The notes under the pieces were generated by a model. It was not told the DNA's origin. It saw only the letters and a program-made list of their open reading frames with translations, and made no database searches. DNA of 64,000 nt from positions 1 through 64,000 of the IMG/VR virus record IMGVR_UViG_3300045988_131228; one strand, written 5' to 3'. The DNA is from a virus. The translations under genes and the position numbers were made by a program. Of this stretch, positions 10,145 through 31,986 are shown piece by piece. Positions within the stretch are counted from its first letter, which is position 1. Each line of letters opens with the position of its first letter.

Positions 10145-10504
10145 TTATTCCTCCATCACGTTCTCTGTATAACTTTCCATATAACTGTTATACAAATTAT
10201 AATAAGTTTCCGCATTATCTGTCAATATCAATTCCAATGTGCTAGTCCATGTATTAACAAAACGTTCTAATACAATCAGATATTTTCTTAATTTCCATCT
10301 GGACAGCTTCAAATTGCTTTCCCCTACTTCACAAAAGTAATTGTCAAGCGTTCCACCTGGAACATATTCTACATCATAATTTCTTTCTTGTAATGAATTT
10401 ACAATATTATCGCACGTTTCCATTGTGGTTCTCATTCTTACATCTTTCATGTTATCAATTCCTTCCTTATTATGTAATGTTCTGTTTAATCGTTCAATCG
10501 GCAT
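10145..10504 (-). CDS. hypothetical early protein
   Basis: 119-aa ORF. Confidence 0.5.
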   Translation of the reverse strand: MPIERLNRTLHNKEGIDNMKDVRMRTTMETCDNIVNSLQERNYDVEYVPGGTLDNYFCEVGESNLKLSRWKLRKYLIVLERFVNTWTSTLELILTDNAETYYNLYNSYMESYTENVMEE

Positions 10505-25100: not shown

Positions 25101-27971
25101 ATGATTGATTTAACAACAGGTGTATATATTCCAAGTGTGGATGCGAAAGACATTTATCTTTCTGCACATTATTATAATTATGAAAATCACGACTACGATT
25201 TAAAACTTAAAGATGGTAATTATAATTTAAGAAAATTTATTAATACTCTTGATTACAGCTTGGACTTAATTGAGTTATTGAATATTTATTATAAAAAATA
25301 TCGCAAGAATGATTTTCTGTTTACTGTAAAAAAACACAAATATACTACAAATGTTATTAATCTCACATTCAAATATTCTGTAAAAGAATGGAATCAAATG
25401 AATAAGAATACATTTGTAAAGTTTGGCTATAACTATAGAGATTTGACGTTTGATGATTGCATTGCAAAAAATAAGATAGGTGAAATTGTTGGTATTCAAA
25501 TAAATTCAAAAGTAAAAAATAAATTAGAAATACCATCTCCATTTGTCGTGGAAAAAGTTGAAATTAAAGATAAGAAAGATAAATCAGTTGTAAAAGAGGT
25601 TCAAATACAGTATCAGAAAAAAGGTGAGCCTAAGACTTTAAAAACAAATGCTCAATTACGAAGTGAATTATATAAAAATGGTTTTACTTGTAATGGAGTC
25701 AAATATTGCAGGATGAAACGGTCTACTGGATCAGCTAGAGTTGGAAAATGTCTCTTCATTAATGAGTCATTATTTAAGCCATTATTAAATTTCAGTTCTG
25801 GGGCAATCCGTTTAAATCCTGGTGACGAAATAGATCTTGCTGCATATGAGGGGTATATCGCTCTTCCCTCGAGTAGCATTATTGATACTCTACCAATTAA
25901 ACCAGAGAATATTTTATTAATTGATGATTATGATAGTGTATTCAATGAAGATGTAATTGAAACGCATGACGAAAACAATTGGCTAAAAACAACTGAAAAG
26001 AATTGTACTATTACCAATACGATATGGGATGGACAATCATTAATGGATATATCTTTGTTTGGTGATTATTCAGAATATGGAATGGTGCTTCTCAGAAACT
26101 TAATGTTTAAGTCATGTTGTTTTAATTGTAATATTCAACAATGGTTTAAGGATAATAATATTACAGATATTTCACAATTAAATGGGAAAACAAGAGCTAC
26201 CAAAATTGAAGATGTAAAATTAATCACTACACCAAATAGTATTAAATATTTGAAATTTAGTACATGGGATGAATGGCTTGATAATTTATATCCTAATTTT
26301 GGAGTTGTAAAACATGATAAGAAGACTCACTTTTTTGAAGGTAGACTTGTTCAAACTCATTACCAGCTTTTGAATACTTTACAAATGTCAAAAGATGAAG
26401 TAAATGATTTTTTATCAGAAGCTTTAGACTTTGCACAATTATTACGCAATAATCCAGAGGTTGTACGATATTACATTAAATATCCTGATATTGATGAGTT
26501 AGATCCATTATCACAGCCTATGAACAGTAAAAATGATGTTGTATATAATTTGATGAGTATTAATGATAACTTCACAAAGACTAAATATTATAAAGATTTT
26601 TTAATTGATTTACTCAGGTCATATTATAAGAATCTAAAAAATGGACATGTTTATGTAAATGGAAATTATTCTACTTTGCTAGGAAATCCCATTGAAATGT
26701 TACAACAATCAATTGGTAAATTTGATGGTAAAAGTCAAATTGGAATTGGTAATATACATAGTATACGATTTGATTACAACAAAACACTATTGGCAAGCCG
26801 TAGCCCTCATGTAACAATTGGTAATATTTGGCTTCCGTATAATACAGAAAACAAACTGATAGATTGTTATTTTAATCTTACACCTGAAATTATATGTCTT
26901 AATTCAATTGGAGAAAATGTTTTACAGAGGTTATCAGGAGCAGATTTTGACAGTGATACCGTATTATTAACAGATAATGAAATATTGATTCGTGCAGCAA
27001 AAAGGAATTATCATTTATTCAAGACTCCTACTTCTTTTGTATCAGCTCGAAAAGTTAAAAGATATTATACTCCTGAACAACAAGCAGATCTTGATATTAA
27101 AACATCTGTAAATAAAATTGGAGAAATTATCAATCTTTCTCAGGAGCTAAATTCTTTGTTATGGGATAGAATGTATTATGGAGAAACTTATGATGATATT
27201 AAAGAGCTATATTATGACATTTGTCAATTGGATGTAATGTCTGGTATCGAAATTGATAAAGCAAAAAAAGAATTTGATGTTAATAATGTTAAAGAACTTG
27301 ATAAATTAAGACAAAAATACGCACCCGTCCTTGAACACATCGAAAAAGACGAAAGTGGTAAAGATATAAAAAAGAAAAAAGTCCCACACTTCTTCTCTCA
27401 TATTTCAAAACAAAAAGGTTTCTATAATCCAGAAAAAAAATACTATTGTAAATATCATACGACTATGGATTATTTACAGACAATAGTAAATGGATTCAGA
27501 ATAAAAAATCCATATAAAAAAGATTGGTCACCATTTACAGCATTATTGGATAATGAAAAATACTACAGCTATAATGTAAATCAAAATCAGATTGATAAAA
27601 TTTACACTATGCTCAAAAAATATGTTAATGATAGAAAGTTAATATATTCATCCGATTCGGACTCAAAAGAAGATAAGAATGAAAGATCCAATAAATTAAA
27701 AGTTGATTTAATTTCGGATATTGAATCTGAGACTATAGGATACTCTACAATGTATAGATTATTATCTTCTGTTGAAGATAAAGAAAATGCACAGATCAAA
27801 AATTTATTATTAGAGATATTATTTTTATGTGGAAATAAAAGTTTTAACGAGACAATAATTCAATCTTCTAATGAAATAAAACAGTTAGAAATTGACGGAA
27901 ACGACATAAAAATCTTTGATATTGGTTTTAAAATTGCAAAAAAGCGGATAAATTCATGCAAAAATGAGTGA
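25101..27971 (+). CDS. large protein with a DxDxD motif; candidate YonO-like single-subunit two-barrel RNA polymerase
   Basis: 956 aa. LSGADFDSDTVLL resembles the NADFDGD metal-binding loop of beta-prime/YonO/RdRP double-psi barrels. No Walker A motif. Confidence 0.4.
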   Translation: MIDLTTGVYIPSVDAKDIYLSAHYYNYENHDYDLKLKDGNYNLRKFINTLDYSLDLIELLNIYYKKYRKNDFLFTVKKHKYTTNVINLTFKYSVKEWNQMNKNTFVKFGYNYRDLTFDDCIAKNKIGEIVGIQINSKVKNKLEIPSPFVVEKVEIKDKKDKSVVKEVQIQYQKKGEPKTLKTNAQLRSELYKNGFTCNGVKYCRMKRSTGSARVGKCLFINESLFKPLLNFSSGAIRLNPGDEIDLAAYEGYIALPSSSIIDTLPIKPENILLIDDYDSVFNEDVIETHDENNWLKTTEKNCTITNTIWDGQSLMDISLFGDYSEYGMVLLRNLMFKSCCFNCNIQQWFKDNNITDISQLNGKTRATKIEDVKLITTPNSIKYLKFSTWDEWLDNLYPNFGVVKHDKKTHFFEGRLVQTHYQLLNTLQMSKDEVNDFLSEALDFAQLLRNNPEVVRYYIKYPDIDELDPLSQPMNSKNDVVYNLMSINDNFTKTKYYKDFLIDLLRSYYKNLKNGHVYVNGNYSTLLGNPIEMLQQSIGKFDGKSQIGIGNIHSIRFDYNKTLLASRSPHVTIGNIWLPYNTENKLIDCYFNLTPEIICLNSIGENVLQRLSGADFDSDTVLLTDNEILIRAAKRNYHLFKTPTSFVSARKVKRYYTPEQQADLDIKTSVNKIGEIINLSQELNSLLWDRMYYGETYDDIKELYYDICQLDVMSGIEIDKAKKEFDVNNVKELDKLRQKYAPVLEHIEKDESGKDIKKKKVPHFFSHISKQKGFYNPEKKYYCKYHTTMDYLQTIVNGFRIKNPYKKDWSPFTALLDNEKYYSYNVNQNQIDKIYTMLKKYVNDRKLIYSSDSDSKEDKNERSNKLKVDLISDIESETIGYSTMYRLLSSVEDKENAQIKNLLLEILFLCGNKSFNETIIQSSNEIKQLEIDGNDIKIFDIGFKIAKKRINSCKNE

Positions 27972-28102: not shown

Positions 28103-28420
28103 ATACAAGAAAATTATACATATATTTCTCAAAAGGAAATTTCACATGAAATCGAAAAAAGATTGGGTTGTTCTGCACATGATGTATTTAAAATATTAGA
28201 TACATTAAGTGATGTGGTAAAGGATAAAATTAGTGATACGGATAATGCAGAAATAAAAATATTTCCTGGACTAAAAGTAACTTCTAAGTGTGTACCATCA
28301 GAACAATATAATTCTAATTTAAAAAATGTAAATATACCATCTAACCATGTTTTAAAATTATCTGTATATTTTACACATGATTATAAAAGAAAAATAAGAG
28401 AAACATATAAAACTCATTAA
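28103..28420 (+). CDS. divergent HU/IHF-like DNA-binding protein, apparently starting at ATA
   Basis: Frame is open from 28079. GAGGAGG (28088-28094) lies 8 nt before ATA at 28103. The N-terminal helix ISQKEISHEIEKRLGCSAHDVFKILDTL sits upstream of the only canonical start, TTG at 28163. Confidence 0.5.
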   Translation: MQENYTYISQKEISHEIEKRLGCSAHDVFKILDTLSDVVKDKISDTDNAEIKIFPGLKVTSKCVPSEQYNSNLKNVNIPSNHVLKLSVYFTHDYKRKIRETYKTH

Positions 28421-28494
28421 TTGGCATATAATCGGCGGTTGCACTGATTCTTCCCCTTTCGTTACAGTGCTTCCGTTGATTAAAAATATAATAA

Positions 28495-28567
28495 TGCGGA
28501 TTAGAGAAGTAGTTAACTCGCTTGGCTCATAACCAAGAGAACATTGGTGCAAATCCAATATCCGCTA
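28495..28567 (+). tRNA. tRNA-Met (anticodon CAT) with initiator-like features
   Basis: Hand-folded cloverleaf. Anticodon stem CTTGG/CCAAG, loop CTCATAA, T arm ATTGG-TGCAAAT-CCAAT, U8, A14, A21, 1:72 U-U mismatch, A11:U24, A73. Confidence 0.7.
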
Positions 28568-28599
28568 TTTGATGCGTTTTATGACGCATCATAAATTTT

Positions 28600-29478
28600 A
28601 CAATGTTATTGTTACGATTATGTGGCTTGACACAGATAGTATATCGTGAGGTATATAAAGATAGATTTACACCCTATCGCTATAGAAATATAGTCAATTC
28701 AAGCAAAACTGACATACCAGTAACTCAAAAGGTTGCGTTTCGCAATTGAGTCTATGCGGAAATAGTATGTATTATAAGGAGCGATAAAGTGATTTAGGGG
28801 CGACCGCTGAGAATTACTTTTTGACCGCAAATCAGATAGCTCATGCAAACTTATATGCATATAATGGTGAATCAGGAGGATAAATAGTGCGAGAAATTAT
28901 TAATCGAGTGCATTATCCATTTATATGAGTATATTACTTATATGAACGTTTAGTAGGGATTATAACTGAAAGACATGAAGGTGTGATGTATTTTTGTTCT
29001 CAAAAGGAATGAAAGCGTCTGGTGTAGCACATCTTCTGTAACTTGGACTTAAACTTGTTGTAAAGTAGAATAATATTATCGGGAATGGTGGAATGCCGTT
29101 TACGTTTAAAAGGTAAAAGAATATTTATATACTTAAATATTACATACAAAGCGAAAGTCTACACCTCTACATGGTGAAAACAACCTAATTCCATAGTACT
29201 TATAAGAGTATAATATGGACATTAATAAGTCTCGCAAGACTTTGAGATGTTTGATCGAGTTTGCACAGTTCTCTTAGCGGAGATTTATAGCACGGCGGTG
29301 TTAATGGAATAATAAAATCAGAGTAGTCATGTAGTAAAAGAGAAATGCCACTCTTTCAAAAAGGCGGTTGTGGAAGTTTACTATATATGCGTAAGGTATA
29401 TAGTGGATACGGAAAGAACTCATAATGTTCTAAAAGAACTTCTGTATAAATGTGTAATCTCAGCATTTATAATAATAA
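28600..29478 (+). ncRNA. candidate large structured non-coding RNA between tRNA genes (ROOL/GOLLD-class hypothesis)
   Basis: About 0.9 kb with no ORF of 60 aa or more on either strand. TTGACA at 28627. Many local hairpins, e.g. 28922-28944, 29228-29241, 29381-29403, 29412-29430. Confidence 0.3.
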
Positions 29479-29556
29479 TGATATATAGCTCAATTGGTTA
29501 GAGCGATTGTTTTCGTATGGATTTGGTAGATTTAGGTTCAAAGCCTAATATATCAA
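29479..29556 (+). tRNA. tRNA-like element or pseudo-tRNA with a degenerate anticodon stem
   Basis: Perfect 7-bp acceptor TGATATA/TATATCA, canonical D arm GCTC-AATTGGTTA-GAGC and T arm TTAGG-TTCAAAG-CCTAA. Only 3 of 5 anticodon-stem pairs form and the variable region is 9 nt. Confidence 0.45.
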
Positions 29557-29647
29557 TTAAGCCAGGAATAATCAAACTCTCTTAAATATACTGGCGATAG
29601 GGGACGTTGTGAGATGTCCCCTAAATGAGTTAGAAAGTTGGTAAATT

Positions 29648-29815
29648 ATGTATATAGAAAAAGATGGAATACCTTATATACATGATAATGAAAATAAAAT
29701 CAAAGATAAAATTTTAACAATTCTCTCACATGAAGAATTCACTTTAGCTACAACAAAACATCTTTTTGATAGAATTATTCAAGAAATTAATGAGAATAAT
29801 AAAATTAATTTATAA
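29648..29815 (+). CDS. small hypothetical protein (55 aa)
   Basis: Below the track cutoff. ATG at 29648, TAA at 29813-29815. Preceded by hairpin GGGGAC..GTCCCC (29599-29621). Confidence 0.4.
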   Translation: MYIEKDGIPYIHDNENKIKDKILTILSHEEFTLATTKHLFDRIIQEINENNKINL

Positions 29816-29860
29816 ATTTTCAGATTGTTCTTTTCTTCTTTGATCATTAAGTTCAGAAAT

Positions 29861-30007
29861 TTAGTTGAATGCTTCTGTATATGTTTCCATATACTTTTTA
29901 ACGAATGTTTTTACTTGAAGTGGTTGAGAACCAACAGAAGCACTTCTTTTAGCTACATAATCAGCTAATTCTTTAATTTGATTAAGATCTAAAGTTGTAT
30001 CTCTCAT
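29861..30007 (-). CDS. small hydrophilic protein (48 aa), a lone leftward gene in the tRNA island
   Basis: GGAGGTATACAA-ATG with its own promoter. MRDTTLDLNQIKELADYVAKRSASVGSQPLQVKTFVKKYMETYTEAFN. Confidence 0.45.
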   Translation of the reverse strand: MRDTTLDLNQIKELADYVAKRSASVGSQPLQVKTFVKKYMETYTEAFN

Positions 30008-30036
30008 TTGTATACCTCCGATGTATTTTTCTTACA

Positions 30037-30065
30037 ATTATACAACTTATGATGCGATTATTCAA
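30037..30065 (-). promoter_or_regulatory. sigma70-type promoter for the 48-aa leftward ORF
   Basis: Minus strand TTGAAT (30060-30065), 17 nt, TATAAT (30037-30042). Confidence 0.5.
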
Positions 30066-30198
30066 TATTTGATTATAAAAATCCAACAATGAGTGTCGAT
30101 TATTACGTTATTCGACTAATAAAATGCGTGTTAATAGTATGTTTGATATATCATAAAAATACATCACCGCTACTACTCATGGCGGTTGGATAAAATCA

Positions 30199-30287
30199 GT
30201 ACAGGTGGCAGAGTCGGGTTTAATGCGGATGCCTTGAAAGCATTTGATGGATAAAACCATCCGTGGGTTCAAATCCTACCCTGTACG
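30199..30287 (+). tRNA. tRNA-Ser (anticodon TGA), class II with a long variable arm
   Basis: Acceptor GTACAGG/CCTGTAC, anticodon stem GATGC/GCATT, loop CTTGAAA, variable arm GATGG-ATAAAA-CCATC, T arm GTGGG-TTCAAAT-CCTAC, G73. Confidence 0.85.
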
Positions 30288-30356
30288 TTACTCTCCTACT
30301 TGGAGAAATAAATGCAAAGGACGTGAATTGTTATAAAAGCAATTAATAAAAAAGAA

Positions 30357-30509
30357 ATGAAATACCTTATGAATAAAGGGTTTAAGTTCCATGAAGACAT
30401 TTTTAAGACATATAGTGGTAAGAATAAATACTACTATAGAGAATGTAATGCTATTAATAAGGCATTAGATGATTACCATAATGGATTAAGTGTTATGGAA
30501 TATAAATGA
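30357..30509 (+). CDS. small hypothetical protein (50 aa from the ATG)
   Basis: Ends in an ATGA overlap with the next start (30506). The frame is open upstream to 30328. Confidence 0.4.
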   Translation: MKYLMNKGFKFHEDIFKTYSGKNKYYYRECNAINKALDDYHNGLSVMEYK

Positions 30510-30708: not shown

Positions 30709-31986
30709 TTGGTAAACAATCGTAAATATAAAGAATTTAAACCAAAGGACATTGATTTTGTATTTATCACTCACAATCATGGGGATCACTGCTTGTTATT
30801 ACCGAAATTATATAAAGAAGGATGTAGAGCTGCCACTATTGTTTCAGAAGGATCAAAGCAAGTTTTGAAAGATATGGCAATTGATTCTGCTTTAATTAGT
30901 GAAAGAGACATATTGGTTATCAATTCTCAGAATAATAAGAATTATTCTCCACTTTATTCTATAGAAGATGTAAATAAAATGTTGGAATACACATTGGAAA
31001 AACCAGTAAATGAAAAAATTATTATTGATGATGAATTAGCTTTTGAGTTAATTCCAAGTGGTCATCTTCTTGGAAGTTGTCAAGTGAAATTATATTTTAC
31101 TGTTGATGGATTGACAAAAACCTGTTTAGTCACAGGAGATTTAGGAAATAAGATAATTCATAATAGATTTGTTGGTGAATATCAACAAGTAGATTATGCT
31201 GATGTTGTTATTGGAGAATCAACATACGGAGATAGACCAGATTTAAAAACTGGACTTAAAGAACGAAAAAATGATTTAGAAAAATTTAAAGCAATTATAG
31301 AAACACAAGTTCATGAAATGAAAGGACGGGTTGTTATCCCAAGTTTTGCGCAATCAAGACTTCAACAACTTGTGCTGATGATTTATGAAATGTATAAAGA
31401 TTCTCAATGGAAACCAAAAGTATATATAGATTCACCATTGTCTATTAAAATTTTTGATGATTATGACGAATGCTTGACTGGTGAAGATAAAAAACTTTTT
31501 GATGAAATGATTCAAGATAAGATGTTTACTTTTGTAAAAGAATCCGAAGACAGTAAATCACTTGTACAAAGTAATGAACCTTGTGTAATTTTATCGACCA
31601 GTGGAATGTGCATGGTCGGCAGGATCAGGCATCATTTAAAAAAATGTATTCCAAATCCTAATGCTACGATGCTCTTTGTGGGATTCAGTACAGATGGAAG
31701 CCTTGCTTCACTTTTAAAGGATAATAAACAAAAATTTGTTACCATTGACCAAAAAGAATATCCTTGTAGATGTGCTTCTTATTCATTAAAATCAATGAGT
31801 GGACACGCACCATTCTGGCAACTGATAGATGACTATACAAAAATTAATAGTCAAAAGATTGTCTTACATCATGGTTCCAAACAAGCAAAAGAAACTTTAA
31901 AAATTGCTCTGGAAAAAGAATTGGAGAAACAATGTAAGTCAACAAGAGTTGTAATTGCTAACTCAAGTTTGAAATTTACATTATAA
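30709..31986 (+). CDS. metallo-beta-lactamase-fold beta-CASP nuclease (RNase J/CPSF-like); the true N-terminus lies upstream of this TTG
   Basis: FVFITHNHGDHCLLLP carries the HxHxDH motif. The same frame is open from 30547 and encodes KISFVDSPSSEDVTGSLIYISTQNHRILVDCGLHQ. Confidence 0.75.
   Translation: MVNNRKYKEFKPKDIDFVFITHNHGDHCLLLPKLYKEGCRAATIVSEGSKQVLKDMAIDSALISERDILVINSQNNKNYSPLYSIEDVNKMLEYTLEKPVNEKIIIDDELAFELIPSGHLLGSCQVKLYFTVDGLTKTCLVTGDLGNKIIHNRFVGEYQQVDYADVVIGESTYGDRPDLKTGLKERKNDLEKFKAIIETQVHEMKGRVVIPSFAQSRLQQLVLMIYEMYKDSQWKPKVYIDSPLSIKIFDDYDECLTGEDKKLFDEMIQDKMFTFVKESEDSKSLVQSNEPCVILSTSGMCMVGRIRHHLKKCIPNPNATMLFVGFSTDGSLASLLKDNKQKFVTIDQKEYPCRCASYSLKSMSGHAPFWQLIDDYTKINSQKIVLHHGSKQAKETLKIALEKELEKQCKSTRVVIANSSLKFTL

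What the first reader, a model, noticed from the sequence alone, without database searches (positions are those of the whole stretch)
28568..29478. About 0.9-kb ORF-free, hairpin-dense region flanked by tRNA genes: candidate large ornate ncRNA
The region between tRNA-Met (28495-28567) and the tRNA-like element (29479-29556) has no ORF of 60 aa or more on either strand. Only trivial mini-ORFs occur. It does have a possible promoter, TTGACA at 28627. It also has many local stem-loops: GATGCGT..ACGCATC 28571-28590; ATATGAGTA..TACTTATAT 28922-28944; AGTCT-CGCA-AGACT 29228-29241; CTATATA..TATATAG 29381-29403; and AGAAC..GTTCT 29412-29430. GGCGGTTG words recur at 28434, 29363 and 30181. Large structured RNAs of the GOLLD and ROOL classes are known to reside in phages and prophages next to, or containing, tRNA genes. 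I cannot verify their consensus by eye, so this is a hypothesis based on context and structure density.
Basis: partly seen in the sequence, partly recalled or inferred. Interest (0 to 1): 0.65.

Follow-up and report, generated by a model that had tools for sequence, protein, structure and literature searches.

The report
GOLLD RNA gene in gut phage
The ORF-free stretch between two tRNA genes encodes a GOLLD RNA, a known class of giant phage non-coding RNA that builds RNA-only cages. It is a correct identification of a known kind, in a genome slot where related gut phages carry a ROOL RNA, a protein gene or nothing.

Summary
Rfam's GOLLD model (RF02032) matches window 28976-29466 (+) over its full length at 172.4 bits (gathering score 150, E 1e-46). 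No ROOL, intron or tRNA-like match falls inside 28568-29478. That match is only the conserved 3' domain. The 5' part (about 28621-28975) is a second structured domain. It is shared by three phage lineages about 70% identical to each other. 35 of its 98 predicted pairs change on both sides and stay paired, and a held-out lineage forms 94 of 98. No mini-ORF over 40 aa survives in the other lineages. The gene lies between tRNA-Met and tRNA-Arg, 12 nt from the latter, in a roughly 176-kb human-gut phage. I infer co-transcription with the tRNAs, release by tRNA-processing enzymes, and assembly into a homo-oligomeric cage as in solved GOLLDs; the biological function is still unknown. Among related phages the same slot holds GOLLD, ROOL, a protein gene or only tRNAs. 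Phages 96-97% identical in the upstream gene lack the cassette. This is a new member of a known kind, of moderate interest.

The parts
28495..28567 (+). tRNA-Met(CAU) immediately upstream of the GOLLD gene. ARAGORN draws a U1.U72 mismatch at the top of the acceptor stem.
   Evidence: ARAGORN; Rfam tRNA 60.9 bits. A tRNA-Met also precedes GOLLD in clade B and in the solved env-38 GOLLD (PMC12286853).
28570..28591 (+). Hairpin starting 3 nt after tRNA-Met (UGAUGCGU / ACGCAUCA), followed by a weak U-run. I read it as either a leaky terminator of the tRNA or a 5'-terminal protective hairpin of the GOLLD transcript.
   Evidence: Terminator-like call. 4 of its 5 counted pairs change on both sides between clades A and B and stay paired.
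28621..28975 (+). GOLLD 5' domain. Sequence conservation between lineages starts at about 28613. It holds about 15 helices: the P1 hairpin 28621-24/28631-34, whose loop GCUUGA can pair with UCAAGC at 28699-28704; a three-hairpin junction (28639-56, 28660-78, 28679-94); a long-range helix 28709-19/28865-75 enclosing 28720-36, 28738-61 and 28779-28842; and hairpins 28878-28918 and 28920-28946.
   Evidence: RNAalifold; helix coordinates. Pair counts are 99.9% paired with 24 both-side changes on clades A+B, and 98.9% paired with 35 of 98 both-side changes on three clades, against 1-5 in slid controls. The held-out L378 forms 94 of 98 pairs.
28953..28960 (+). Invariant GUAGGGAU near the boundary of the two domains. 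The same word in env-38 forms the intermolecular kissing loop B4 (GGGAU with AUCCC).
   Evidence: Invariant. The env-38 contacts and sequence are in Suppl. Tables 2 and 4 of PMC12286853. GUAGGGA recurs in several other GOLLD loci. No partner was identified here.
28976..29466 (+). GOLLD conserved 3' domain, the part covered by the Rfam model.
   Evidence: RF02032 at 172.4 bits (gathering score 150), E 1e-46, model positions 1-416 of 416. 88 of 97 consensus pairs are canonical in the window. On the alignment, 88% of cells pair against 34-48% when slid, and 15 pairs change on both sides against 0-3 when slid.
29038..29147 (+). Hypervariable linker, the counterpart of the disordered linker that points into the cage in env-38. 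In other GOLLDs this is where a tRNA can be embedded.
   Evidence: Insert states and low posterior probabilities in the cmscan alignment. Indel-rich. L038 carries a clade-B-like linker in an otherwise clade-A RNA. tRNAs are embedded about 325 nt before the 3' end in L020, L044 and L108. Linker description: PMC12286853.
28998..29008 (+). Hairpin loop UCAAAAG of the first 3'-domain hairpin. In env-38 its adenosines make the conserved A-minor bridge B6.
   Evidence: Matches the uppercase consensus UCAAAAG and is invariant. Its role as a bridge is inferred from PMC12286853.
29227..29242 (+). P21a-type hairpin with a CGCAA loop. Its self-complementary GC is the symmetric kissing loop B8 in env-38.
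Evidence: helix 6, invariant. PMC12286853.
29270..29283 (+). P21b-type hairpin UCUC-UUAGCG-GAGA. The loop differs from the consensus cGCAA but keeps a GC dinucleotide, and the stem covaries.
   Evidence: helix 9: two pairs change on both sides, UCUC/GAGA against GUUC/GAAC. The loop is invariant in three clades.
29452..29464 (+). 3'-terminal conserved block GUGUAAUCUCAGC.
   Evidence: It was used as the search pattern.
29467..29478 (+). 12-nt A/U spacer between the GOLLD 3' end and the next tRNA.
   Evidence: The spacer is 12-15 nt in clade A and 13 nt in clade B.
29479..29556 (+). tRNA-Arg(UCG), 78 nt, with two mismatches in the anticodon stem. I infer that its 5' end is an RNase P site that would define the GOLLD 3' end.
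   Evidence: ARAGORN drawing; Rfam tRNA 45.5 bits. The anticodon is CCG in L081, and the anticodon arm differs in L038.
28465..30262 (+). The cassette that is present or absent between near-identical phages: tRNA-Met, GOLLD, tRNA-Arg, a 55-aa ORF and the 5' part of tRNA-Ser.
   Evidence: L351 (97% identical in the upstream 956-aa protein) aligns to the window up to 28464 and again from 30263, with an unrelated 195 nt in between.

Best explanation
Window 28621-29466 (+ strand), possibly starting at the hairpin at 28570, is a gene for a GOLLD RNA of about 850-900 nt. The phage is a human-gut phage of about 176 kb. Shown: the 3' half (28976-29466) is the family's conserved domain. Shown: the 5' half (28621-28975) is a separate, strongly covarying domain that belongs to this group of phages. 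Shown: a hypervariable linker (29038-29147) sits near the start of the 3' domain. Inferred, step 1: the RNA is transcribed on the + strand together with the flanking tRNAs. No conserved promoter lies between tRNA-Met and the first helix, and the next tRNA starts 12 nt after the last conserved base. Inferred, step 2: it is released by tRNA-processing enzymes, RNase Z or an endonuclease after tRNA-Met and RNase P at the 5' end of tRNA-Arg. The conserved hairpin at 28570-28591 would then be its 5' end. Inferred, step 3, by homology with the solved env-38 and Streptococcus agalactiae GOLLDs: the 3' domains join through conserved loops (UCAAAAG, CGCAA, a GC-containing P21b loop) into a ring. The 5' domains cap it, giving a closed homo-oligomeric RNA cage with the linker inside. 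The number of subunits cannot be predicted. The biological role is unknown. Comparison with relatives shows that it is dispensable accessory cargo of a hypervariable slot, not a core phage function.
For: Rfam GOLLD hit above the gathering score, full model length, + strand only. 88 of 97 consensus pairs are canonical in the window. The Rfam structure, which was not derived from these sequences, is 88% paired on the alignment against 34-48% when slid, with 15 both-side changes against 0-3. The 5' domain shows 35 of 98 pairs with both-side changes across three lineages about 70% identical to each other, 98.9% paired, and 1-5 in slid controls. A lineage not used to derive the structure forms 94 of 98 pairs. 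ORFs of 48, 53 and 49 aa are broken in the other lineages. Clades B and C are also Rfam GOLLDs, at 181.4 and 170.5 bits. The arrangement tRNA-Met, GOLLD, then a tRNA within 12-15 nt is conserved in clades A and B. In clade C a decayed tRNA-Met-like element precedes the RNA and a terminator-like site follows it. The RNA is 70-73% identical in nucleotides between clades A and B, whose flanking proteins are only 24-34% identical. Phage context: terminase, portal and integrase, and 99.2% identity to MT835469.1 from human faeces. Cage formation and co-transcription with tRNAs are from the literature (PMC12286853; PMC12990946; PMC5737381).
Against: No expression data exist for this phage, so neither end of the RNA is known. 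The Rfam score is only 22 bits above threshold, and 9 consensus pairs are non-canonical. Folding energy alone is marginal (z about -1.8). The hairpin after tRNA-Met also fits a terminator pattern. If it is one, GOLLD needs its own promoter, and none was recognised. The 5' domain has no detectable sequence similarity to env-38 or to about 31 other GOLLD loci (best E 0.02). Transfer of the cap architecture and the subunit number is therefore unsupported. Covariation rests on three lineages only, and the 5' structure was derived from two of them.
Confidence: 0.9

Rival explanations
1. The region is a decayed tRNA array: remnants of tRNA genes between the intact ones, with no function of its own.
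For: It lies inside a tRNA cluster. In clade B the same site heads an island of 10-12 tRNAs. A decayed tRNA-Met-like element lies upstream of the clade C copy.
Against: No tRNA or tRNA-like match lies inside 28568-29478, with ARAGORN or with Rfam at E<=1. The full-length GOLLD match stands against it. So does purifying selection on pairing: 35 + 15 pairs with both-side changes. Nucleotide conservation exceeds that of the neighbouring protein genes.
Confidence: 0.01
2. It is a different large RNA, such as ROOL, a group I or II intron, or a ribozyme, that merely resembles GOLLD.
For: ROOL occupies the same slot in related phages (L373 at 281.9 bits, L414 at 342.8, L348 at 271.5). A group I intron is present in L348.
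Against: In the window no ROOL or intron model reaches E<=1 over 28300-30400. GOLLD is the only large-RNA family above the gathering score in the whole window.
Confidence: 0.01
3. It is a GOLLD-derived sequence that no longer functions as a cage. It would be a transcribed spacer or processing scaffold whose only role is to deliver the flanking tRNAs.
For: The cassette is dispensable: it is absent in L351, L352 and L370, which are 96-97% identical in the upstream gene. GOLLD was reported dispensable for phage production in a Lactobacillus brevis prophage (PMC7567579, citing Weinberg 2009). The downstream tRNA-Arg has a defective anticodon stem.
Against: Both domains are under strong structural constraint in three lineages. 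The loops that act as bridges in solved GOLLDs are invariant. A mere spacer would not keep 195 base pairs.
Confidence: 0.06
4. The interval encodes one or more small proteins, and the RNA structure is incidental.
For: Ten ORFs of 26-53 aa exist on the two strands.
Against: The 48-, 53- and 49-aa ORFs acquire frameshifts and stops in clades B and C, and partly in L038. Only ORFs of 26-40 aa lying in invariant RNA segments stay open. Substitutions follow base pairing, not codon position.
Confidence: 0.02

Closest known systems
GOLLD RNA env-38 (marine metagenome; cryo-EM 14-mer, PDB 9MEE; Kretsch et al. 2025, PMC12286853)
   Same: The same Rfam family and 3'-domain architecture. Both have P21a- and P21b-type hairpins, the UCAAAAG loop, a variable internal linker and the GUAGGGAU word near the domain boundary. 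Both lie downstream of a tRNA-Met. Sizes are similar (833 nt against about 850-900 nt).
   Different: The 5' domain shows no detectable sequence similarity, and a crude shape comparison was inconclusive. The P21b loop is UUAGCG rather than cGCAA. The linker is about 110 nt against 42 nt. The source is a human-gut phage of 30% G+C. The oligomeric state is unknown.
Streptococcus agalactiae GOLLD (700 nt; full length a dodecamer, 3' domain alone mainly a decamer; PDB 9L0R, 9LMF; reviewed in PMC12990946)
   Same: The same family, probably also from a low-G+C Gram-positive setting. It shows that the 5' domain caps the ring and fixes the subunit number.
   Different: The S. agalactiae RNA lacks P21b and several 5' helices, whereas the window RNA has P21b and a longer 5' domain.
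ROOL RNA (RF03087; 6- to 8-mer cages)
   Same: A large ornate phage RNA next to tRNAs that forms an RNA-only cage. It occupies the same genomic slot in related phages: L373, 91% identical in nucleotides to the GOLLD-bearing L378 over the upstream genes, and L414, where ROOL sits between two tRNAs.
   Different: Unrelated sequence and fold. There is no ROOL match in the window.
GOLLD in mycobacterial tRNA arrays and the Lactobacillus brevis ATCC 367 prophage
   Same: Embedded in or next to tRNA clusters, of phage origin, expressed as a discrete RNA, and dispensable for phage production (PMC6582537; PMC7567579).
   Different: Those copies often carry a tRNA or pseudo-tRNA inside the linker. The window copy has none.

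Membership tests
GOLLD RNA (Rfam RF02032) | Covariance-model score at or above the curated gathering score, over the whole model | tested here: met
   172.4 bits against 150, E 1e-46, model 1-416 of 416, + strand, not truncated.
GOLLD RNA (Rfam RF02032) | Conserved 3'-domain secondary structure kept by compensatory change | tested here: met
   88 of 97 consensus pairs are canonical in the window. On 12 sequences, 88% of cells pair against 34-48% when slid, and 15 pairs change on both sides against 0-3.
GOLLD RNA (Rfam RF02032) | Two-domain RNA of about 700-900 nt, with a less conserved but structured 5' domain | tested here: met
   The 5' domain (28621-28975) has 98 predicted pairs, 35 with both-side changes in three lineages, 98.9% paired. 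The held-out lineage forms 94 of 98. It has no sequence similarity to other GOLLD 5' domains, as expected for the variable half.
GOLLD RNA (Rfam RF02032) | Variable, unstructured linker inside the 3' domain (the site of embedded tRNAs in some members) | tested here: met
   29038-29147 aligns to insert states, is indel-rich, and is mosaic among close relatives.
GOLLD RNA (Rfam RF02032) | Conserved loops that act as intermolecular bridges (UCAAAAG loop adenosines; self-complementary GC in L21a and L21b) | tested here: inconclusive
   UCAAAAG and CGCAA are present and invariant. The P21b loop is UUAGCG, with its GC shifted by one position. Mapping to env-38 residues is by consensus position only, because the env-38 copy I obtained is an imperfect OCR text (816 of 833 nt).
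GOLLD RNA (Rfam RF02032) | Phage or prophage context, next to tRNA genes | tested here: met
   tRNAs lie 53 nt upstream and 12 nt downstream. Terminase, portal and integrase are in the window. 99.2% identical to phage record MT835469.1.
GOLLD RNA (Rfam RF02032) | Forms a homo-oligomeric RNA-only cage | not testable with these tools
   Needs in-vitro transcription with mass photometry or cryo-EM.
GOLLD RNA (Rfam RF02032) | Expressed as a discrete abundant RNA during lytic growth | not testable with these tools
   No transcriptome is available, and the host is unknown.
ROOL RNA (Rfam RF03087) | Covariance-model match | tested here: not met
   No match at E<=1 over 28300-30400. The same tool does find ROOL in L348, L373 and L414.
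Group I / group II introns | Covariance-model match | tested here: not met
   No match at E<=1.
tRNA or tRNA-like element (decayed array) | Cloverleaf detected inside 28568-29478 | tested here: not met
   ARAGORN and Rfam (E<=1) find tRNAs only at the flanks.

The most novel reading that the evidence does not exclude
This group of gut phages may carry a GOLLD whose 5' cap domain is unrelated in sequence to those of the solved GOLLDs. It could therefore build a cage with a different subunit number. In addition, GOLLD and ROOL are alternative cargo of one hypervariable slot downstream of a conserved 956-aa gene. That would make them functionally equivalent, dispensable accessory modules, for example tRNA-related or counter-defence, rather than parts of the core phage cycle.
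Probability: 0.35. Interest if true: 0.6.

Novelty: new member of a known kind. Interest (0 to 1): 0.4.

Why it matters
GOLLD and ROOL are among the largest structured bacterial and phage RNAs. Their cage structures were solved in 2025, but their function is still unknown. This locus adds a human-gut phage lineage in which both GOLLD domains are well supported by covariation. It also places the RNA in an informative natural experiment. Near-identical phages exist with and without the cassette, and phages 91% identical in the upstream genes carry GOLLD or ROOL at the same position. That supports the old suggestion that the two RNAs do related jobs, and it shows that they behave as swappable accessory cargo. 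If a host can be found, such natural variants are ready-made material for fitness and defence-evasion tests.

Tried and rejected
1. TTGACA at 28627 as a promoter: rejected. It lies in the loop and 3' arm of a covarying hairpin and reads TTGGCT in clade B. The promoter scan finds no partner -10 box.
2. GGCGGTTG copies as deletion or insertion junctions of the cassette: rejected. The homology breakpoints with L351 are at 28464/28465 and 30262/30263, about 30 and 80 nt past copies 1 and 3. Clade B has only the internal copy.
3. Homology of the 5' domain to env-38 or other GOLLDs: nhmmer with --max gave nothing better than E 0.02. A shape comparison with an MFE fold of the OCR-damaged env-38 sequence was inconclusive.
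4. Host or prophage search: the one genome-contig scan, with a 16-mer of the 5' domain, returned 120 chance matches and none carried the RNA. Host clues are indirect only. Distant homologues of the 956-aa protein occur in Enterocloster, Thomasclavelia and Bacillus phages.
5. The 14-base search patterns gave many chance hits. Only about 43-69 of the 118 loci look like GOLLD, and most loci are unrelated.
6. A third kind of large RNA in the slot of L354: rejected. It holds a 203-aa ORF, and no Rfam match appears at E<=1.
7. Identity of the 956-aa protein: Pfam, NCBIfam and PDB sequence searches found nothing.
8. Weinberg 2009 (PMC4140389) and Morgado 2020 (PMC7549688) are not held. Statements about them come from the papers that cite them.

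Full report
OBSERVATION. The interval 28568-29478 lies between tRNA-Met(cat) at 28495-28567 and tRNA-Arg(tcg) at 29479-29556. A third tRNA, Ser(tga), is at 30199-30287. All three are on the + strand and are confirmed by Rfam's tRNA model. The longest ORF touching the interval on either strand is 53 aa. Folding energy alone is only marginally better than that of shuffled sequence. The z-scores are -1.83 for 28613-28975 and -1.89 for 28976-29466 on the + strand, and 0.04 for the - strand of the 5' part.

IDENTITY. A scan of the whole window against Rfam 15 at gathering thresholds gives one large-RNA hit. It is GOLLD (RF02032) at 28976-29466 on the + strand, at 172.4 bits against a gathering score of 150, with E 1e-46. 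It covers model positions 1-416 of 416 and is not truncated. A permissive scan (E<=1) of 28300-30400 adds no ROOL, intron or extra tRNA-like hit. Of the 97 consensus pairs that have residues in the window, 88 are canonical. The Rfam model covers only the conserved 3' domain of GOLLD. [quoted passage not shown]

RELATIVES. The region is 99.2% identical to MT835469.1, an unannotated 176,210-bp "Bacteriophage sp." record from human faeces. Pattern scans of IMG/VR and nhmmer searches found the whole RNA, both halves, in three lineages.
- Clade A is the window and its near-identical relatives.
- Clade B is L023, L046, L063 and others. Its Rfam GOLLD score is 181.4 bits.
- Clade C is L378, at 170.5 bits.
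The three are 70-73% identical to one another.

STRUCTURE, 3' DOMAIN. I projected the Rfam consensus structure, which was not derived from these sequences, onto the alignment of clades A and B. 88% of cells pair, against 34-48% when the 3' partners are slid by 1-3 columns. 15 pairs change on both sides and stay paired, against 0-3 in the slid controls.

STRUCTURE, 5' DOMAIN. RNAalifold on clades A and B gives about 15 helices between 28621 and 28946. On A and B, 99.9% of cells pair and 24 pairs change on both sides. Clade C was not used to derive the structure. It forms 94 of the 98 pairs, and 17 of them differ on both sides from the window. On all three clades, 35 of 98 pairs show both-side changes, against 1-5 in slid controls. 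Caveats: there are only three lineages, so each pair records few events, and the structure was derived from two of them.

The first helix is the hairpin 28621-24/28631-34. It has three variants: UGUG/CACA, GGAG/CUCC and GGUU/AACC. The loop can also pair with UCAAGC at 28699-28704, either as a pseudoknot or as an alternative fold. The TTGACA is therefore RNA structure, not a -35 box.

ORFs of 48, 53 and 49 aa in the interval are broken by frameshifts and stops in the other clades.

The 5' domain has no significant sequence similarity to the solved env-38 GOLLD or to about 31 other GOLLD loci (best E 0.02). It does share the word GUAGGGAU near the domain boundary. In env-38 that word makes an intermolecular kissing loop.

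ANATOMY AND LIKELY MECHANISM. A hairpin at 28570-28591 starts 3 nt after tRNA-Met. It is conserved as structure but not as sequence: 4 of its 5 counted pairs change on both sides. It also fits a weak terminator pattern. No promoter-like site conserved between the clades lies between it and the first GOLLD helix. The last conserved GOLLD base (29466) is 12 nt from tRNA-Arg. The spacer is 12-15 nt in clade A and 13 nt in clade B. In clade C a terminator-like hairpin with a U-run follows the RNA instead. A decayed tRNA-Met-like element, seen by eye but not called by ARAGORN, precedes it.

From this I infer co-transcription with the tRNAs and release by RNase Z or an endonuclease upstream and by RNase P downstream. 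Co-transcription has been suggested before (PMC5737381). None of this is shown here.

The window keeps several elements that act as intermolecular bridges in env-38: the UCAAAAG loop, the CGCAA loop of P21a and a P21b hairpin. The P21b stem covaries, and its loop (UUAGCG) keeps a GC dinucleotide. The linker 29038-29147 is hypervariable and mosaic. This fits the disordered linker that faces the cage interior in env-38. Solved GOLLDs are 14-mers (env-38), 12-mers (S. agalactiae, full length) or mainly 10-mers (its 3' domain alone). The 5' domain sets the number. The stoichiometry here therefore cannot be predicted. The function of the family is unknown. Published ideas are encapsulation of tRNAs, ribosomes or other molecules.

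CONTEXT. The gene order in the window is:
- a 956-aa protein (25101-27971);
- an 85-aa ORF;
- tRNA-Met, GOLLD and tRNA-Arg;
- a 55-aa ORF and tRNA-Ser;
- a 50-aa ORF;
- a beta-CASP metallo-beta-lactamase-fold ribonuclease homologue (30709-31986);
- ClpP;
- an SbcD-like exonuclease.
Terminase and portal genes lie further downstream.

Clade B keeps the order 956-aa protein, GOLLD, beta-CASP, ClpP, exonuclease, although the proteins are only 24-34% identical. There GOLLD heads an island of 10-12 tRNAs. The RNA is thus far better conserved than its protein neighbours, or it has been exchanged more recently.

THE SLOT IS HYPERVARIABLE. I collected 80 loci that encode homologues of the 956-aa protein and examined what follows the 85-aa ORF homologue.
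- GOLLD follows in ten clade A loci and in L378.
- ROOL follows in L373 (281.9 bits). At nhmmer level it also follows in L369, L374 and L412.
- ROOL sits between two tRNAs in L414 (342.8 bits).
- ROOL is present in the more distant L348, which is MT837385.1 (271.5 bits).
- A 203-aa ORF fills the slot in L354.
- Only tRNAs are found in L351, L355, L366 and others.

L373 (ROOL) and L378 (GOLLD) are 91.3% identical in nucleotides over the upstream two genes. Their homology ends 22 nt before ROOL. L351 is 97% identical to the window in the 956-aa protein. It aligns up to 28464 and again from 30263, so the block 28465-30262 (tRNA-Met, GOLLD, tRNA-Arg, the 55-aa ORF and part of tRNA-Ser) is replaced by 195 unrelated bases. 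GOLLD is therefore accessory cargo here. This agrees with its reported dispensability in a Lactobacillus brevis prophage.

COMPARISON AND VERDICT. Every testable defining feature of GOLLD is met. Cage formation and expression cannot be tested with these tools. ROOL, introns, a decayed tRNA array and small-protein coding are all excluded or very unlikely. The finding is a correct identification of a new member of a known RNA class. It adds a well-supported lineage-specific 5' domain and an informative pattern of GOLLD, ROOL or nothing at one locus. Interest is moderate. A specialist would not be surprised to find GOLLD in a phage next to tRNAs. However, the natural variants could help test what these cages do once a host is known.

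Noticed in passing
L373:12365-12981, L378:12726-13588, L414:11227-11797, L348:8424-9021, L354:12405-13016; window 28465-30262: The slot after the 85-aa ORF, downstream of the 956-aa gene, holds GOLLD, ROOL, a 203-aa ORF or only tRNAs in related gut phages. L373 (ROOL) and L378 (GOLLD) are 91% identical up to 22 nt before the RNA.
   Followed up: partly
window 28465-30262 against L351:12366-12559: Phages 96-97% identical in the 956-aa protein (L351, L352, L370) lack the whole tRNA-Met/GOLLD/tRNA-Arg block. The right breakpoint lies inside tRNA-Ser.
   Followed up: yes
window 25101-27971 (+): A 956-aa protein of PHROG 8308 (unknown function) with a D[FY]DSD motif invariant in three lineages. Its distant tblastn hits are annotated 'RNA-dependent RNA polymerase' in Thomasclavelia and Enterocloster phages. 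It may be a YonO-like single-subunit RNA polymerase. Pfam, NCBIfam and PDB sequence searches find nothing.
   Followed up: partly
window 30709-31986 (+): A beta-CASP/RMMBL ribonuclease homologue, closest to the aCPSF1 and Cas14-type models but below their cutoffs. It lies 420 nt after tRNA-Ser and is conserved downstream of GOLLD in clade B at 33% identity. The ORF starts only about 20 residues before the HxHxDH motif, so its N-terminus looks short. It is a candidate processing enzyme for the tRNA/GOLLD precursor.
   Followed up: partly
window 29479-29556 (+): tRNA-Arg(UCG) has two mismatches (G.G, U.U) at the bottom of the anticodon stem and a pyrimidine 3' of the anticodon. Near-identical phages have anticodon CCG (L081) or a different anticodon arm (L038). 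It is possibly a pseudo-tRNA kept as a processing signal.
   Followed up: partly
window 28434, 29363, 30181 (+): GGCGGTTG occurs three times within 1.8 kb and nowhere else in the 64 kb; 1 of 2000 shuffles matches this. The copies lie 53 nt before tRNA-Met, inside the GOLLD 3' domain, and 10 nt before tRNA-Ser. Clade B has only the internal copy, and L038 has TTCGGTTG at the first site. They are not the cassette junctions. Unexplained.
   Followed up: partly
window 28436-28476 (+): Stem-loop CGGUUGCACUG...CAGUGCUUCCG between the 85-aa ORF and tRNA-Met, overlapping the first GGCGGTTG and preceded by a perfect TATAAT at 28427-28432. Seen by eye only. The homology breakpoint with L351 (28464/28465) falls inside it.
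   Followed up: no
window 28495-28567 (+) and clade B tRNA-Met: The tRNA-Met upstream of GOLLD has a U1.U72 mismatch in both clades (ARAGORN drawing). This recalls the 1:72 mismatch of bacterial initiator tRNAs.
   Followed up: no
L044 (tRNA ending 329 nt before the GOLLD 3' end), L020, L108: Other GOLLD loci carry a tRNA inside the linker. In L044 ARAGORN calls anticodon CTA ('Pyl'), that is, an amber-suppressor-like tRNA embedded in a GOLLD.
   Followed up: no
L038:8633-9545 against window 29038-29147: L038 is clade A throughout, but its linker and its P21b stem resemble clade B. This indicates recombination inside the RNA gene.
   Followed up: no
L348:5276-5525 and 10421-10481: The ROOL-bearing relative MT837385.1 also has a group I intron (77.2 bits) in the region of the fragmented 956-aa-protein homologue, and a RAGATH-18 RNA next to its tRNAs.
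   Followed up: no
window 29033, 29439, 29872 (+): CTTCTGTA also occurs three times in 28400-30300, twice inside GOLLD.
   Followed up: no
clades A, B and C, whole RNA against flanking genes: GOLLD is 70-73% identical in nucleotides between clades A and B, whose flanking proteins are 24-34% identical in amino acids. This means either very strong constraint or more recent transfer of the RNA.
   Followed up: partly
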